From Thermodesulfobacteriota bacterium (GTDB taxonomy: Bacteria > Desulfobacterota_D > UBA1144 > Nemesobacterales > Nemesobacteraceae), in the NCBI GenBank assembly GCA_965232155.1, contig OZ246948.1, positions 1,016,434-1,080,433 of the forward strand: a stretch of DNA of 64,000 nucleotides, written 5' to 3'. Within the stretch, counting starts at the first letter, position 1; each line of letters starts with the position of its first letter. A program made the translations under genes and the position numbers. The notes beneath the pieces were generated by a model that saw only the letters and a list, made by a program, of their open reading frames with translations, ran no database searches and was not told the DNA's origin. Below are positions 13,827 to 54,014 of this stretch, one piece after another.

Positions 13827-15161
13827 ATGAAAAACGGCAAACTCGATAAAACGGTTCTAAGCGAAAGGATTGAAGAAGCGCTTAAATACCCGCTTTTTGA
13901 TTCCATATTCAACAGGCGCTCAAGAAGATTCGGTCTTGGAATGGAGCTTAAGGACAGCACCCTTGAGTTCAAGTCGAACTACGATCCCGTGCCTCTCACA
14001 GAGATGGAGGAAGCGCTTCTGGTGTGGGCCGGAACGGGGCTCACCGGGCTTTGCCTCGCTGACCTGCCGCCAGAGAACGGGATAGACCTTCTATGCCAGT
14101 GGACGGGAAGAACCTGGCCTTCTGCGTGCAATAACCACGGGACTGAGCTTTTTTTCACAAATGATAACGGTCTTTACCACGTGGACGTAAAGAACATGCT
14201 TCCCAAGGAACATGAGATCGATCTGTTTTTCAAGCTCTCCCGCGAGGAGAAAATCGCGAGGGTTCTGGAACTCTACAGGGAAAGCATTAACAAGCTTGAG
14301 GACGGAAGGGCCGACATGCCCGACAAGATGCCGGGACTTTTTGAGTTTAACCAGTGGAATACAAACAAGCCCGGCACCACGCTTTTTGTTCCGGTGACGG
14401 ACGTCACCGAGGAGTACCTGAATCTTCTTACCCTTTACTGCAGCCACAGCTACGGATTCACGATCATAGACGATCTTACCGGAAAGCCCGCGGGCGTTGA
14501 GAAATGGGTGGAGACAGGCAGGCTCAAGGGCGATATAAAGCTTTCTCTATTCGATCTCGAGGTAAGAATTCTTACGGGACTTAACGTTGAGCAGGCGTTT
14601 ATCACGCAGAACATGGCCCTTGCTCTCCAGCCCCTGGGGCTTGCGGGATGGGCGTTTACGGGCTTCATACCGAGGTTCGCCATGGGAGCCGCTCCGAATC
14701 TGTTCAAGGGTCTCGGATTCCGTTTCGTTCAGCCGAAAAAAGGTACGATCGATCCTCCCACCACCGTTCCCGTAGGAAAGGACGGGGTTTTTGAAGCTTA
14801 CTGTCCACCCTACTATGAGAACATGGATGATGCGATTGATCACTTCTTGGCCCATAAATGGAGAGCGTGGGAATCCGACAAGCCTTTCCCGTACACGGAA
14901 CCCGACAGGCATCTCATGAAGGCCCCGAGGCCCACGGATACCACCATAGAGATTGTAAGGGCTGTCGCTAACTATATTTATGACACTTACGGCAGATTCC
15001 CAGCGTTTGTGGATCCCATGTACATGAGGCTAGTTTTTCAGGCGATGCACATAGACGTGGATTTCTATGACCAGTATTACCCGAAGGGTTCCTATTCGGA
15101 CAGGCATCTGCAAGCTTTTCTCGAGAACAATCCGGACCAGAGAGAGCGGTTTAAAGAGTAG
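13827..15161 (+). CDS. Enlarged nitroreductase-superfamily protein (444 aa), function unknown
   Basis: N-terminal FNRRSRRFG (RRSxRxF nitroreductase signature) and C-terminal ITQNMALALQPLGLAGWAFTGF (QNxxLAxxxLGLG), with about 250 extra residues between. Ribosome-binding site AAGGAG 8 nt upstream of the ATG at 13827. Confidence 0.5.
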   Translation: MKNGKLDKTVLSERIEEALKYPLFDSIFNRRSRRFGLGMELKDSTLEFKSNYDPVPLTEMEEALLVWAGTGLTGLCLADLPPENGIDLLCQWTGRTWPSACNNHGTELFFTNDNGLYHVDVKNMLPKEHEIDLFFKLSREEKIARVLELYRESINKLEDGRADMPDKMPGLFEFNQWNTNKPGTTLFVPVTDVTEEYLNLLTLYCSHSYGFTIIDDLTGKPAGVEKWVETGRLKGDIKLSLFDLEVRILTGLNVEQAFITQNMALALQPLGLAGWAFTGFIPRFAMGAAPNLFKGLGFRFVQPKKGTIDPPTTVPVGKDGVFEAYCPPYYENMDDAIDHFLAHKWRAWESDKPFPYTEPDRHLMKAPRPTDTTIEIVRAVANYIYDTYGRFPAFVDPMYMRLVFQAMHIDVDFYDQYYPKGSYSDRHLQAFLENNPDQRERFKE

Positions 15162-49354: not shown

Positions 49355-49390
49355 AACGGTTGCGGCGAAATCACCTGAAAGAGGATTGTC

Positions 49391-49579
49391 ATGGGACTTG
49401 TAGATGAAATCAGAGACAGACGGGATTCCTGGAACCGGAGACTTGAAGAGCAGAGGGTCTCCCAGGAGCCCTACGATCATGAATTTGAGAAACGGAACGC
49501 CCGCAGCATCGAAGAAGAAATAAGAAAGAACCGGGAGATGGTTGGAAAATTCCCGATTCTGGAAAAACAATCGAAATAG
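49391..49579 (+). CDS. Hypothetical small charged protein (62 aa)
   Basis: ORF with AAGAGGA ribosome-binding site; no homology recognised. Confidence 0.25.
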
Positions 49580-49671
49580 TCGGCGAAAAAGGGCCGCTGG
49601 CGGGTGATTTGACAATCTTTTTTTTATCCTTTAGGGTTTTTCACCCCCGTTGGGATGGAGGTTTTGATTTT

Positions 49672-49860
49672 TTGCCAGGAATAACAGTAGGTAGCAGCGA
49701 AAGTATTGACAGTGCCTTAAAAAGGTTTAAGAAACAGGTTGAAAAGGGTGGGGTTCTTTCTGAAGTAAGGAAGAGAGAATACTACGAAAAACCGAGCGAG
49801 AAGAAAAAAAAGAAGCTGTTTGCCGCCAAAAAGCGCAGTTCAAGCAGAAGAAGAAGGTAA
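49672..49860 (+). CDS. rpsU: 30S ribosomal protein S21
   Basis: TTG start giving [48 protein letters not shown]... (S21 pattern ALRRFKR..EK.G.L.E.RRRE.YEKP). GGAGG ribosome-binding site 11 nt upstream. Confidence 0.85.
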
Positions 49861-49928: not shown

Positions 49929-51723
49929 ATGAAGAACTATTCTTCCACATCAGCGATAGCGGATATAAAAGCAAGGCTCAGCATAGTAGATGTTATACAG
50001 GGCTTTGTTTCCCTTAAAAAATCTGGAAAGAACCATATCGGGCTCTGCCCGTTCCACGACGACAACAACCCTTCCATGCAGGTAAATGATGAGAAGGGTT
50101 TTTTTCATTGCTTCAGCTGCGGAGCCGGAGGAGATGTATTCGGCTTCCTGATGAGATACAGCAATATAGGCTTCCCCGAAGCCTTAAAAGAACTTGCCAA
50201 GAAAGCCGGAGTCAGACTCCCGGCTCCGCGTCGGCGCACCGAAAGTGAGAAGAAAAAAGAGGCCACTTCGGCGAGGTTTTTCAAGATAAATTCTCTTGTC
50301 TGTTCGTTTTACAGCGATAATCTCCACAAGGTCGGGAAAAAACTCCGCGCGGGCTAGAAAGTACCTGGAATCCAGAGGAATCGGTCCAGAGATAATCGAG
50401 GAGTTCAAGCTTGGCTTTGCCCCAGACAGCTGGGATGCCGTTGTGAAATTCGCTTCAGCGAAAAATATAGGTATCAAGGAACTCGAAAAACTTGGTCTTG
50501 TCGCTGCGAAGAAGAGCGGAAGCGGCCATTACGATCGGTTCCGAAACAGGATTGTTTTTCCCATAGATGAGATAACGGGACAAATTTGCGGTTTCGGCGG
50601 CAGAACTCTGAGCGAAGATGAACCCAAACAGCCGAAATACATGAATTCCCCTGAATCCCCGGTTTTCGACAAAAGGAGCATTCTTTACGGAATTTACCGC
50701 TCGAAAAATGAAATCGGAAGAGAACGGAAAGCCGTTTTGGTTGAAGGCTACATGGATTTCATAAAGCTCTACGCAAATGGAATACGCAACGTGGTCGCCA
50801 CCTTGGGGACGGCTTTTACGAATGACCACGCCAGGCTTCTGCGACGTTTCTGCGAGGAGGTGGTGATTGTCTACGACGGCGATACCGCCGGGATACGTTC
50901 CGCTGTCCGGGCCGGAGAGATTCTTCTTGAGCAGGGGATTTCTTCAAGCATTTGCCGTATTCCCGATGGCCTCGACCCCGATGATTATCTGGAGGAGCAC
51001 GGATCTGAGAGTCTCGCCGGGCTGATCGAAGCCGCCGTTGATGTCTCGGATTTTATTATTGACGACACTTTTGCAAGGTACAGGGAAAAGAAAATGTCTT
51101 CCGGAGAGTCGATAAAATTTCTTGTGGATTTAGTTTCAAAAATAAAAGACCCGGTCAGAAGGGCTGAAGCTGTTTCCAAGGTAACAGGGCTTTTCGGGAT
51201 AAGGGAGTCTGAGTTCCTCTCTATGGTGAAGACTTCGGATCCGGGGAGAAACCGCGGGTCGCTTGCGCCGGCGACCCTGATTCCGGAAAAGAACATTCAT
51301 GAGAGAGAAATTGTTAGGATACTGCTTAAATTTCCCCACCTGATGAACGCCGAGAAGATTGAAAATATCGGTAGGCATTTTGAAAATGGTGATTTAAAGG
51401 TTATTCTCAAACGTGTGGGTGAAGGGGAGTTTACCGAAGTTTCCTCCCTGATGAGTTCTTTTGAGAAAATCGAGATGCAGCAACTGCTGAGCGAATTGAT
51501 TTTTTCTTCGGATAATTTGGTAGATGAGACGATTTCGGAGAAAATATTAAAGGACTGCGTGAAGGAGCTTGAACTGAAAAATATAGCTTTTAAGCGTAAT
51601 GAAGTAATAGAGAGAATCCGCAAGCAGCGTGACTCTTCGGATAAGAACCTCGAAAGAAAACTTGTTGAACAATACAGGGATCTGGTGAGTATGGAAAAGA
51701 CCATAAAAGAGGCTGCAAGTTGA
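49929..51723 (+). CDS. dnaG: DNA primase, with an apparent +1 frameshift in an A6 run near 50325
   Basis: Zn-finger [30 protein letters not shown], then ...[12 protein letters not shown]| after which the frame shifts to [14 protein letters not shown]... (removing one A restores the frame). TOPRIM EGYMDF...VYDGDTAGI. Confidence 0.85.
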
Positions 51724-53213
51724 ACCCAAACGACGAGACCAACGGACTGGGAAACGAAGTCGGCATGCAGGATGAAGGGGAGTTCCCTGAGTCCGGACAG
51801 GGTTTTCAAAGTCCCCCGTCTGATTCTCAAGCGGAAGACAAGCTCAAACACGTAAAGAGTCCTGATTCCGACCAAGATCCTATAAGGTCTTACATTCTCG
51901 CTATTGCGCAGCACTCCCTCCTTTCCAAGGAGGAAGAAGTTGAGATAGCAAGACAGATTGAAAAAGGTAAGAAAATAATCGCGAGAATGATAATAGAGAA
52001 CCCCTTCATGATGAAAAAGGTTCTCAAACTCGAAGAAGAGATAAAAGAAGGCACGCTCGGTGCGGGCGACAGTTCCTACCAGGGCGAGTACATAGAATCC
52101 TCCGCTGACGGCGAAACATATAGAAATTCCGCAAAGAACTTTCTTCCAATCAAGGAACTTTTTGCTGAGACCGAAGAGCTGAGAAAAAAACTCGATACTA
52201 CGACGCTTTCAGATAGCGAACGAGCGAAGATCTCTAAGCAAATCAGAAAGAACAACGAGCGGACCGTAGAACTTCTTGACGAAATCGATTTTTCCTCTGC
52301 GCAGGCCAGCAGGATATACAACCTGGCCGTCGAGTATGTGGACAGGATTGAGGGCGGGGATTGTGACTGCATTATGGATGGTTCAGACGATGGGATCGGC
52401 AATGGTTCGAGATCTGAATATTCCGAGGAGGAAATCGCTTCTCTTAAAAAGGTGCTTAGTAGGTTTGAAAAAGCAAAGAAGGCTACTAAGAAAGCCAGAA
52501 AAACACTTATCGAGTGCAACCTCAGACTTGTAGTCAGTATAGCGAGAAAATACGTTAACAGAGGCCTGCCGTTCCTCGATCTGGTTCAAGAAGGCAATAT
52601 GGGGTTGATGAAAGCGGTTGAAAAGTTCGAACATGGAATGGGATACAAATTTTCAACCTGTGCCACGTGGTGGATAAAGCAGGCAATTACGCGCGCAATA
52701 GCTGATCAGGGAAGTCTTATAAGAATTCCTGTTCACATGACCGAAAATATAAACAGGCTGAACAAAATCTCGAGATCCCTGATGCAGAAACTGGGGAGAG
52801 AACCCAAGCCGGAAGAGATAGCCGAGGCAATGGACATACCTCTTGATAAGGTCTTGAAGATCATGAAGGTGTCACGTGACCCGATTTCCCTGGAGTCCCC
52901 GATTGGCGAGGACGAGTGCAGGCTGATGGATATTATCTCGGACCCGGCTTCCGCTTCTCCTCTTGACATGCTCGAGACCAAAGAATTGAACCGTATCATG
53001 CGCAACGCGCTCTGCACCAGTCTCAGTAACGGAGAGGAAGGAGTCGTTAAAATGCGTTTTGGTATAGATGAAGACAAGGAATACACCCTTGAAGAAATAG
53101 GGAAGAAGTTGAACGTTACCCGCGAGAGGATAAGACAGATCGAGGTAAAGGCCATTAAGAAGCTTAAAAGGTTCGGAAGAGCTCTTCCCATACGGGGTCT
53201 TAACACTGACTGA
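51720..53213 (+). CDS. rpoD: RNA polymerase sigma-70 factor RpoD (alternative ATG start at 51765)
   Basis: Region 1.2 [21 protein letters not shown], region 2 [41 protein letters not shown], region 4 [29 protein letters not shown]. Confidence 0.9.
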
Positions 53214-53221
53214 TATTCCAG

Positions 53222-53250
53222 CTTGACATTACTTTTTTCAATGGTAGTTT
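53222..53250 (+). promoter_or_regulatory. Possible promoter for the 5S rRNA (consensus -35 TTGACA; weak -10)
   Basis: TTGACA at 53222-53227, about 30 nt before the mature 5S 5-prime end. Confidence 0.3.
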
Positions 53251-53258
53251 TCTGATTC

Positions 53259-53372
53259 TAGGGTGGCTATGCTGAAGGGGAAGCACCCGGTCCCATCCCG
53301 AACCCGGAAGTTAAGTCCTTATAGGCCGATGATACTGCTCCTTTCAGGAGTGGGAAAGTAGGTGGCTGCCCT
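53259..53372 (+). rRNA. rrf: 5S ribosomal RNA, not linked to 16S/23S within this window
   Basis: GGGTGGCTATGCTGAAGGGGAAGCACCCGGTCCCATCCCGAACCCGGAAGTTAAGTCC...GCCGATGATACTG...GGGAAAGTAGGTGGCTGCCC carries the universal 5S loop motifs (CCCATCCCGAAC, GAAGTTAAG, GGGAAAGTAGGT) and 5-prime/3-prime helix I complementarity. Followed by T6. Confidence 0.85.
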
Positions 53373-53402
53373 TTTTTCTTTCCTTGCTTTCTCAACTTTC
53401 CG

Positions 53403-54014
53403 GTGCCTGCGATGTCAAAGACCAACGTTGCCGTGTTTGTTTCCGGAAGCGGAACAAATCTTCAGGCAGTGATAGATTCCGGCATAGAATCTGCAAACAT
53501 AGCCGTGGTTGTCTGTGATACTCCAGGAGTCATGGCAATTGAGAGGGCCAGGAAACACGGTATTCCCTTAGAACTCGTAAACAGCAGGGATTTTGAATCA
53601 AAGGAAGAGTTCGAAAGGCAGATAGTAGCGAAAATCGACAGATATGACATAGGTCTTGTCGTACTTGCCGGGTTCATGAGGATATTTACTCCTTATTTCA
53701 TAGGCCGTTTCGCGAACCGCATCATCAATATTCATCCTTCCTTGCTTCCTTCTTTTCCGGGAACAAATTCGGTAAGACAGGCACTTGACTACGGAGTGAA
53801 ACAGACGGGTTGTACCGTCCACTTCGTGGAAGAGAAAGTTGACGCTGGTCCGATTATTTTTCAGGCAGTTGTTCCGGTTACGGAGGAAGATACGGAAAAG
53901 ACTCTGCTTGAAAAAGTCCATACCGAGGAACACAGGATACTGCCTGAAGCCATAAGGCTTTTCTGCGAGGGAAAACTGACCCTCAGTGGAAGAAAAGTCC
54001 TGATTTCCTCCTAA
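53403..54014 (+). CDS. purN: Phosphoribosylglycinamide formyltransferase
   Basis: VAVFVSGSGTNLQAV...LAGFMRI...NIHPSLLPSFPG. Confidence 0.9.
   Translation: MPAMSKTNVAVFVSGSGTNLQAVIDSGIESANIAVVVCDTPGVMAIERARKHGIPLELVNSRDFESKEEFERQIVAKIDRYDIGLVVLAGFMRIFTPYFIGRFANRIINIHPSLLPSFPGTNSVRQALDYGVKQTGCTVHFVEEKVDAGPIIFQAVVPVTEEDTEKTLLEKVHTEEHRILPEAIRLFCEGKLTLSGRKVLISS

What the first reader, a model, noticed from the sequence alone, without database searches (positions are those of the whole stretch)
53214..53380. Orphan 5S rRNA gene immediately downstream of rpoD
A full-length 5S rRNA with all universal motifs sits 45 nt after the rpoD stop and 30 nt before purN, with a TTGACA -35 box upstream and a T6 tract after helix I. 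No 23S or 16S sequence occurs within 10 kb on either side. Unlinked 5S genes occur in a few lineages, but a 5S appended to the macromolecular-synthesis operon (rpsU-dnaG-rpoD) is unusual. It could couple 5S supply to sigma-70 transcription or act as a terminator/processing element.
Basis: seen in the sequence. Interest (0 to 1): 0.55.

Follow-up and report, generated by a model that had tools for sequence, protein, structure and literature searches.

The report
Stand-alone 5S rRNA gene in Dadabacteria
A genuine 5S ribosomal RNA gene sits by itself, with its own promoter, between the sigma-factor gene rpoD and the purine gene purN; it holds this position in every sampled relative in the uncultured Dadabacteria lineage, so this is a real but modest example of a rare rRNA gene layout that is already known in a few other microbes.

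Summary
Rfam calls a full-length 5S rRNA at window 53259-53374 (+), at 86.7 bits against a threshold of 38. It lies 45 nt after the rpoD stop and 37 nt before the purN ATG. The 64 kb window holds no 16S, 23S or tRNA.

The window comes from a Candidatus Dadabacteria genome. The same 5S sits directly upstream of purN in all 42 loci examined, including closed chromosomes and relatives whose RpoD is only 46-57% identical. It is therefore not a misassembly. Twelve base pairs (11 inside the 5S, one in a flanking helix I extension) keep pairing through changes on both sides, so the gene is functional.

A near-consensus sigma-70 promoter (TTGACA, 16 nt, TG-n-TAnnnT) is conserved. It ends 6-9 nt before the base of helix I. 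A T-run starts at the last pair of helix I, or the next base, in 39 of 42 loci. I read this as a minimal autonomous 5S transcription unit. Helix I plus the U-tract would act as a leaky terminator that also supplies purN, which has no promoter of its own; this part is inferred.

The invariant partner is purN, not rpoD. An RTX-repeat gene (L030; L031 has a similar-sized insertion) or an integrase gene separates rpoD from the 5S in five lineages.

Unlinked 5S genes are already known in Leptospira and Crenarchaeota. I could not test whether the 23S gene elsewhere carries a second 5S.

The parts
49609..49860 (+). rpsU (ribosomal protein S21), the first gene of the rpsU-dnaG-rpoD cluster. The listed ORF begins at a TTG that is itself part of a promoter-like TTGACA-N17-TAGGGT at 49609-49637, so the true start lies further downstream.
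   Evidence: Pfam PF01165 Ribosomal_S21, E = 6.8e-19, on residues 25-76 of the ORF. Promoter pattern match.
49929..51723 (+). dnaG (DNA primase). In this window it is split into two overlapping ORFs (49929-50357 and 50296-51723) by one extra base near 50328.
   Evidence: TIGR01391 matches both halves. Relatives carry one continuous frame. Alignment shows a 1-nt insertion relative to L002 and L010.
51720..53213 (+). rpoD (primary sigma factor). The stop codon TGA is at 53211-53213, only 9 nt before the -35 box of the 5S promoter.
   Evidence: NF004208 RpoD, E = 1.2e-132. Sequence.
53223..53228 (+). -35 hexamer TTGACA of the 5S promoter.
   Evidence: Invariant in the 32 sequences of the conservation alignment (majority fraction 1.00, against 0.81-0.83 for third codon positions). 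TTGAC[AT] is present in all 42 loci.
53242..53250 (+). Extended -10 element TGgTAGTTT: TG at 53242-53243 and the hexamer TAGTTT at 53245-53250. The spacer to the -35 box is 16 nt.
   Evidence: The spacer is 16 nt in 41 of 42 loci, and the hexamer is TAnnnT throughout. Its T, A and final T are invariant in the 32-sequence alignment of loci with rpoD directly upstream, while the spacer (0.79) and the discriminator (0.58) drift.
53259..53374 (+). 5S rRNA gene. The helix I strands are 53260-53267 and 53365-53372.
   Evidence: Rfam 86.7 bits. With the flanking helix I extension included, 92.3% of cells are paired against 28-55% in the slid controls, and 12 pairs change on both sides with 0 of 500 shuffles reaching that. 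5S identity is 97-99% among five checked relatives whose RpoD is 66-75% identical.
53372..53377 (+). Run of six T that starts at the last pair of helix I. This is the proposed U-tract of an unconventional intrinsic terminator whose stem is helix I.
   Evidence: A T-run of at least 4 starts at offset -1 or 0 from the last helix I pair in 39 of 42 loci. In four of the five lineages where one search scored a 4-5 bp helix I extension, it begins 0-3 nt after that extension. Helix I forms next to the U-run in both the MFE and centroid folds.
53378..53411 (+). C/U-rich leader of purN (CTTTCCTTGCTTTCTCAACTTTCCGGTGCCTGCG). It has no promoter-like site and is too short to hold one.
   Evidence: Majority fraction 0.90 over 53375-53412, above the third-codon baseline of 0.81-0.83. 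No + strand promoter was found in 52500-54000 apart from a weak one inside rpoD. The only TTGACA-N-TANNNT match upstream of purN is the 5S promoter.
53412..54014 (+). purN (phosphoribosylglycinamide formyltransferase), the gene that follows the 5S in every locus.
   Evidence: TIGR00639 PurN, E = 6.4e-69. purN or a Formyl_trans_N gene follows the 5S in all 42 loci.

Best explanation
This is a functional, stand-alone 5S rRNA gene that has held the same position, directly upstream of purN and downstream of rpsU-dnaG-rpoD, throughout the Dadabacteria lineage. Shown: it is a bona fide 5S under structural selection, it has no 16S or 23S nearby, and it carries a conserved near-consensus sigma-70 promoter and a conserved T-run. 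Inferred: RNA polymerase starts within about 0-3 nt of the base of helix I, and the completed helix I followed immediately by the U-tract acts as an intrinsic terminator. The primary transcript would then be almost the mature 5S and would need only end trimming. In the marine clade rpoD has no terminator of its own, so rpoD transcripts would also end at this signal. purN has no promoter of its own there, so it would be expressed from the fraction of transcripts that read through.
For: Identity: Rfam gives 86.7 bits in the window and 78-97 bits in the 16 relatives scanned. Covariation is strong, with 12 pairs changed on both sides and 92% of cells paired. Conservation: the 5S lies upstream of purN in 42 of 42 loci. 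These include closed long-read chromosomes, two metagenome contigs and six lineages with RpoD only 46-57% identical. A 43rd locus, L018, has a 126-N mask at exactly that spot. Promoter: the -35 box is invariant, and T, A and the final T of the -10 box are invariant, while the spacer and discriminator drift at or below the third-codon rate. The spacer is 16 nt in 41 of 42 loci, and the -10 box ends 6-9 nt before the helix I base in 41 of 42. The same pattern marks the rpsU and DAHP-synthase upstream regions in the window, so the organism uses this promoter type. The independent scanner picks the same sites in L050 and L055 at 10 of 12 matches. Terminator: the T-run starts at the last helix I pair or the next base in 39 of 42 loci, and begins 0-3 nt after the 4-5 bp extension in four of the five lineages where one search scored one. 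No other stem abuts the T-run, and no terminator lies between rpoD and the 5S. Control: the E. coli rrfB 5S has no adjacent promoter and no abutting T-run, and is followed by a separate hairpin terminator. rrnB P1 and P2 share the 16-nt spacer.
Against: No transcript data exist, so the start site and the termination point are predictions. The proposed terminator is not canonical. Its stem closes a multi-branched structure of about 97 nt rather than a 3-8 nt loop, so the terminator scanner does not call it and its efficiency is unknown. The T-run is missing in L035 and weak in L053. The distance from the -10 box to the helix base (6-9 nt) is only slightly tighter than the distance to the mature-5S core, so the argument that the start site tracks the helix is weak. 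In lineages with longer gaps (L050-L052, L054) purN could have its own promoter, and a candidate exists in L050. I could not see whole genomes, so a second, 23S-linked 5S copy cannot be excluded.
Confidence: 0.65

Rival explanations
1. The 5S is made mainly as the 3' end of the rpsU-dnaG-rpoD transcript and is cut out by RNases. Its supply would then be coupled to sigma-70 expression, and the upstream TTGACA would be secondary.
For: Only 9 nt separate the rpoD stop from the -35 box, and no terminator lies between rpoD and the 5S in the window, L050 or L055. Read-through from rpoD into the 5S is therefore likely to occur to some extent.
Against: The promoter boxes are conserved more strongly than neutral sites and have fixed geometry in 41 of 42 loci. 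An RTX-repeat gene (L030; L031 has a similar-sized insertion) or a convergently oriented integrase gene (L052-L054) separates rpoD from the 5S, yet the promoter and the purN linkage persist.
Confidence: 0.12
2. This is a supernumerary 5S copy. The genomes also carry a canonical 16S-23S-5S or 23S-5S unit elsewhere that supplies most of the 5S.
For: Uneven rRNA copy numbers occur in 22% of genomes in one survey (10.1101/2025.06.23.661116).
Against: The gene is retained in all 42 loci down to 46% RpoD identity, with near-perfect sequence conservation and a strong promoter. A lineage-specific 5S 40-mer found only two metagenome contigs, both with the rpoD-5S-purN context and neither with a 23S nearby, though with only two hits this has little power.
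Confidence: 0.2
3. The T-run is not a terminator. The 5S and purN are fully co-transcribed and RNases release the 5S from the message. The pyrimidine tract would then serve purN translation or RNase recognition.
For: purN has no promoter of its own in the marine clade. The leader is conserved above the neutral baseline at 0.90. HR37 (L053) has only 29 nt between the 5S and purN and no good T-run. The helix I stem is not a canonical terminator hairpin.
Against: The T-run sits at the helix base or within 3 nt of it in 40 of 42 loci, including lineages whose downstream sequence is otherwise unrelated and whose purN lies 74-253 nt away. Full co-transcription from an rRNA-strength promoter would greatly over-produce purN mRNA (inference).
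Confidence: 0.2
4. Assembly artefact: a 23S-5S unit was misjoined to the rpoD region.
For: None was found.
Against: The junctions are the same in 42 independent assemblies, including many closed long-read chromosomes. No 16S or 23S occurs in the window or in any of the 56 fetched loci.
Confidence: 0.01

Closest known systems
Unlinked rrf (5S) genes of Leptospira
   Same: A bacterial 5S gene that is not linked to the 23S or 16S and so must be transcribed as its own unit. [quoted passage not shown]
   Different: Here the 5S has a fixed position (rpoD ... 5S-purN) across a much deeper clade. Whether the 16S and 23S are also unlinked is unknown. The tight promoter, helix I and T-run packaging and the dependent downstream purN are not something I know to be described for Leptospira.
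Stand-alone 5S genes of Crenarchaeota/TACK archaea and Thermoplasma
   Same: The 5S genes are physically separate from the 16S-23S and are transcribed independently (PMC8339473). By inference, the transcript is little more than the mature RNA.
   Different: These belong to a different domain and use a different polymerase and promoter type. In Dadabacteria the promoter is a textbook bacterial sigma-70 promoter.
Canonical bacterial rrn operon (E. coli rrnB)
   Same: The same RNA family. The promoter shares the 16-nt spacer of rrnB P1 and P2.
   Different: In rrnB the 5S lies 92 nt after the 23S, has no promoter of its own, and is followed by a separate hairpin terminator rather than a T-run abutting helix I. 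The Dadabacteria discriminator is C/T-rich rather than G+C-rich. From my own knowledge of stringent control, that argues against rrnB-P1-type regulation.
Stable-RNA plus mRNA operons such as E. coli thrU-tyrU-glyT-thrT-tufB (from my own knowledge, not tested here)
   Same: A stable RNA gene sits at the head of a transcript that continues into a protein-coding gene. This is the arrangement proposed here for 5S-purN.
   Different: Those operons involve tRNAs processed by RNase P, not a 5S, and there is no proposed self-terminating structure.

Membership tests
5S rRNA (Rfam RF00001) | Covariance-model score at or above the curated gathering score, over the full model | tested here: met
   86.7 bits against 38, model positions 1-120 of 120. 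The 16 relatives scanned score 78-97 bits.
5S rRNA (Rfam RF00001) | Three-way-junction secondary structure maintained by compensatory change | tested here: met
   92.3% of cells are paired against 28-55% in the slid controls. Twelve pairs change on both sides, and 0 of 500 shuffles reach that.
5S rRNA (Rfam RF00001) | Expressed and incorporated into the 50S subunit | not testable with these tools
   This needs RNA-seq or ribosome preparations from an uncultured lineage.
Unlinked (stand-alone) 5S gene, as in Leptospira or Crenarchaeota | No 23S or 16S gene within operon distance | tested here: met
   None within 53 kb upstream or 10.6 kb downstream in the window. None within 6-10 kb on either side, where the contig allows, in any related locus.
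Unlinked (stand-alone) 5S gene, as in Leptospira or Crenarchaeota | Its own promoter directly upstream | tested here: met
   This is met at the sequence level only. TTGACA-16-TGnTAnnnT is conserved above the neutral baseline with fixed geometry. Promoter activity was not measured.
Unlinked (stand-alone) 5S gene, as in Leptospira or Crenarchaeota | No second, 23S-linked 5S copy in the genome | not testable with these tools
The only indirect evidence is two metagenome hits, both in this context.
Macromolecular-synthesis operon rpsU-dnaG-rpoD | Gene order rpsU, dnaG, rpoD on one strand | tested here: met
   and the gene tables.
Macromolecular-synthesis operon rpsU-dnaG-rpoD | The 5S is a conserved member of that operon, always adjacent to rpoD | tested here: not met
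   An RTX-repeat gene lies between rpoD and the 5S in L030 (L031 has a similar-sized insertion), and an integrase gene does so in L052-L054. The 5S also has its own promoter.
Rho-independent (intrinsic) terminator | G+C-rich stem immediately followed by a U-tract | tested here: met
   The base of helix I (A-U then three G-C pairs) is followed directly by T4-T9 in 39 of 42 loci.
Rho-independent (intrinsic) terminator | Simple hairpin with a short loop (3-8 nt) | tested here: not met
   The stem closes the whole 5S, about 97 nt with two further arms. The scanner finds no canonical terminator here, whereas it does find rrnB T1 in E. coli.

The most novel reading that the evidence does not exclude
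This is the only 5S gene of these genomes, and it is a self-contained unit. Transcription would start at the base of helix I, and the folded 5S itself (helix I plus the U-tract) would serve as the intrinsic terminator. That one signal would end the 5S transcript, end the rpoD operon in the marine clade, and act as a leaky gate that sets purN expression. A purine-biosynthesis gene would then be tied to rRNA promoter activity in a whole bacterial candidate phylum.
Probability: 0.25. Interest if true: 0.6.

Novelty: new member of a known kind. Interest (0 to 1): 0.4.

Why it matters
Bacterial rRNA genes are usually co-transcribed so that the three RNAs are made in equal amounts. Lineages that break this rule show how stoichiometry can be kept by other means.

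The main survey of unlinked rRNA genes looked only at 16S-23S and never mentions the 5S (10.1101/705046). A candidate phylum with a fixed, separately promoted 5S therefore adds a clean and deeply conserved bacterial case to the few already known (Leptospira; Crenarchaeota among archaea).

Practically, the rpoD...5S-purN block is a synteny marker for Dadabacteria and allied lineages. It may also help the 5S of these MAGs to assemble even when the 16S and 23S do not, since it lies among what look like single-copy genes.

If the helix I plus U-tract terminator and the purN read-through are real, the locus is a compact natural system. It could be used to study termination by a complex RNA fold and the coupling of a metabolic gene to rRNA transcription.

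Tried and rejected
1. Locating the 16S and 23S, or a second 5S, failed. The single metagenome scan with a lineage-specific 5S 40-mer gave only two contigs, both in the same context. The viral collection gave none.

2. Looking up the window's own genome by exact RpoD and PurN sequences found nothing on record.

3. Literature searches for Dadabacteria with 5S, with rRNA operon, or with the Brewer et al. unlinked-rRNA survey, and for a 5S downstream of rpoD, found nothing relevant. Brewer et al. 2020 is not held as a PMC paper, and its preprint does not treat the 5S.

4. I considered an A/T-rich UP element. The upstream region is A/T-richer than the locus average in most lineages with non-coding DNA there. 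Intergenic DNA is generally A/T-rich, so I give this no weight.

5. I considered the idea that the promoter position tracks the helix I extension. The distances (6-9 nt to the helix base) are not clearly tighter than the distances to the 5S core, so this is only weak support.

6. My first purN query was one base out of frame, which produced false absences in L027, L028 and L031. One search corrected this.

7. A riboswitch or other Rfam element in the purN leader: none at gathering threshold.

Full report
**1. Checking the observation**

Rfam's 5S model (RF00001) matches window 53259-53374 on the + strand over the whole model. The score is 86.7 bits against a gathering score of 38, with E = 4e-17. 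It is the only Rfam family that reaches threshold anywhere in the 64 kb, so there is no 16S or 23S within 53 kb upstream or 10.6 kb downstream. ARAGORN finds no tRNA gene either.

- Upstream, on the same strand, lie rpsU (Pfam S21), dnaG and rpoD. rpoD ends at 53213.
- Downstream lies purN (TIGR00639). Its conserved ATG is at 53412.
- DAHP synthase, trmB and aroB follow on the other strand.

TTGACA is at 53223-53228.

**2. Organism and distribution**

A protein-guided scan of one genome per species found RpoD relatives at 66-94% identity. All are labelled Candidatus Dadabacteria or, in NCBI's newer filing, Thermodesulfobacteriota. Many are closed long-read chromosomes.

nhmmer and Rfam place a 5S directly after rpoD in every one of these loci. 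The one apparent exception, L018, has a 126-N mask at exactly that spot.

Two more distant MAGs labelled Deltaproteobacteria (L032 and L035, RpoD 50-52% identical) have the same arrangement. One at 47% (L034) and eleven loci from other phyla do not.

I then searched with the L035 RpoD and looked up six further relatives on long contigs. These include bacterium HR37 and a 2.46 Mb ENA contig. All six share the wider synteny: ctp, polysaccharide deacetylase, rpsU, dnaG, rpoD, purN and then DAHP synthase (with uppS at the upstream end in five of the six). All six have a 5S at 84-97 bits just upstream of purN.

Two metagenome contigs found with a lineage-specific 5S 40-mer show the same context.

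In total 42 loci carry the gene. Across them RpoD identity to the window falls to 46%. 5S identity is 97-99% for five checked relatives with RpoD at 66-75%, and 80-91% for the most distant ones. None of the fetched loci contains a 16S or 23S. A misassembly is excluded.

**3. Which neighbour is conserved**

In L030 a 530-aa RTX-repeat protein gene lies between rpoD and the 5S, and L031 has an insertion of similar size that I did not annotate. In L052-L054 a XerC/D-type integrase gene on the opposite strand does so.

In all five the 5S keeps its promoter and remains directly upstream of purN. A purN or Formyl_trans_N gene follows the 5S in all 42 loci. The invariant unit is therefore promoter, 5S, T-run, purN. 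Adjacency to rpoD is common but not obligatory.

**4. The gene is functional**

I aligned eleven divergent copies. With a few flanking bases included, 92.3% of cells form standard pairs, against 28-55% when the 3' partners are slid. Twelve pairs change on both sides, and none of 500 shuffles reaches the observed values. Eleven of these pairs lie within the 5S itself, in helices I, II, III and the terminal hairpin (helix 5); the twelfth lies in the flanking extension of helix I.

**5. Promoter**

Across the 32 sequences with rpoD directly upstream, the -35 hexamer is invariant. T, A and the final T of the -10 hexamer are also invariant. The 13-nt spacer segment scores 0.79 and the 8-nt discriminator 0.58. 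Both are at or below the near-neutral baseline set by third codon positions of rpoD (0.81) and purN (0.83). This pattern indicates selection on the promoter boxes themselves.

Over all 42 loci:

| Feature | Result |
|---|---|
| -35/-10 spacer | 16 nt in 41 of 42 |
| -10 hexamer | TAnnnT in all |
| TG extension | present in most |
| -10 end to first paired base of maximal helix I | 6-9 nt in 41 of 42 |

The same pattern (TTGACA, N15-19, TANNNT) occurs five times in the window against 1.5 expected. It marks the regions just upstream of rpsU and of the DAHP synthase gene, so the organism evidently uses this promoter type. The independent scanner calls the same 5S promoters in L050 and L055.

A start site 7-9 nt after the -10 hexamer would fall 0-3 nt from the base of helix I. 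This is a prediction, not a measurement.

As a control, E. coli rrnB P1 and P2 also have 16-nt spacers, whereas E. coli rrfB has no promoter of its own.

**6. The 3' end**

A T-run of 4-9 begins at the last helix I pair or the next base in 39 of 42 loci. In L050 and L052-L055 scores helix I as 4-5 bp longer, through complementary flanks (GAAUC...GAUUC). My own reading of the alignment suggests a similar extension with one bulged base in L035. In four of those five scored lineages the T-run begins 0-3 nt after the extension, although the surrounding sequence is otherwise unrelated. L053 has only a weak run and L035 has none.

No other stem abuts the T-run. Helix I forms next to it in both the MFE and centroid folds. 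No terminator lies between rpoD and the 5S in the window, L050 or L055.

By contrast, E. coli rrfB is followed by a separate, canonical hairpin terminator and has no T-run against helix I.

I therefore propose that helix I plus the U-tract is the terminator of the 5S unit. Where rpoD is adjacent, it would terminate the rpoD operon as well. It is not a canonical terminator, because the stem closes about 97 nt of branched RNA. Its activity has to be tested.

**7. purN**

In the marine clade only 36-50 nt separate the 5S from the purN ATG. This C/U-rich leader is conserved (0.90) and contains no promoter-like site. By inference, purN must be transcribed by read-through from the 5S promoter, the rpoD operon, or both. 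The T-run would then act as a leaky gate.

Lineages with longer gaps (74-253 nt) could have their own purN promoter. L050 has a candidate.

**8. Comparison with what is known**

Unlinked 5S genes are known. In Leptospira, rrf, rrl and rrs are all unlinked (PMC2229662). In Crenarchaeota and other TACK archaea the 5S is separate and independently transcribed, and in Thermoplasma all three genes are unlinked (PMC8339473).

The main survey of unlinked rRNA genes dealt only with 16S-23S and does not mention the 5S (10.1101/705046). I found no paper describing this arrangement in Dadabacteria.

I file it as a new member of a known kind. The tight promoter, helix I and T-run packaging and the dependent purN are possible new twists that remain inferences.

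**9. What is unresolved**

I could not search whole genomes. Whether the 23S gene elsewhere carries a second 5S, and whether the 16S and 23S are linked, remain open. The indirect evidence favours a sole or principal gene: universal retention, near-perfect conservation, a strong promoter, and the only two metagenome contexts being this one. It does not prove it.

**10. Verdict**

This is a real, deeply conserved, stand-alone bacterial 5S gene. Interest is moderate at 0.4.

Noticed in passing
window 49929-51723, frameshift near 50328: dnaG is split into two overlapping ORFs in different frames by one extra base (CTCCACAAGG against CTCCAC-GGG in L002 and L010). All relatives have one continuous frame. 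This is either an assembly or sequencing error or a real frameshift in an essential gene.
   Followed up: partly
window 53350-53384: The start of the purN leader (CUUUCCU, 53378-53384) is complementary to GGGAAAG inside the 5S (53352-53358). In a fold of the read-through RNA these two pair instead of forming the normal 5S helices. This could matter for processing or for the fate of read-through transcripts, or it could be a by-product of a pyrimidine tract.
   Followed up: no
L030 11549-13141 (L031 has a similar-sized gap between rpoD, ending 11518, and the 5S at 13839): In L030 a 530-aa protein made almost entirely of RTX calcium-binding repeats (12 HemolysinCabind stretches) is inserted between rpoD and the 5S. 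L031 has an insertion of similar size that I did not annotate.
   Followed up: partly
L052 7593-8453, L053 7605-8483, L054 7662-8519 (minus strand): A XerC/D-type tyrosine recombinase gene sits between rpoD and the 5S in three divergent non-marine lineages. It is convergent with rpoD and divergent from the 5S promoter. It looks like a conserved housekeeping gene rather than a mobile element, and the marine clade lacks it at this site.
   Followed up: no
L035 12041-12640 and 12732-13358: Two formyltransferase (Formyl_trans_N) genes lie in tandem after the 5S in this lineage. The second lacks the first ~27 positions of the Pfam domain (match covers positions 28-181 of 181).
   Followed up: no
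window 49609-49637 and 55113-55083 (minus strand): Consensus-type promoters (TTGACA, N17-19, TAnnnT) lie directly upstream of rpsU and of the DAHP synthase gene. The TTG that starts the listed rpsU ORF is part of the -35 box, so the true rpsU start is further downstream.
   Followed up: partly
L050-L055, about 90-130 nt upstream of rpsU (e.g. L050 3695-3877): A conserved small ORF of 58-60 aa with no Pfam match is called between the polysaccharide deacetylase gene and rpsU in all six distant relatives. I did not check whether the window has it in the 49355-49608 gap.
   Followed up: no
L018 about 1600-1725: In this genome record the 5S position is replaced by a run of 126 N, while the promoter and the purN leader on either side are intact. 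The stretch was evidently masked in the collection.
   Followed up: no
window 1-64000: There is not a single tRNA gene in 64 kb. In L052 and L054 a tRNA lies just beyond the DAHP synthase gene.
   Followed up: no
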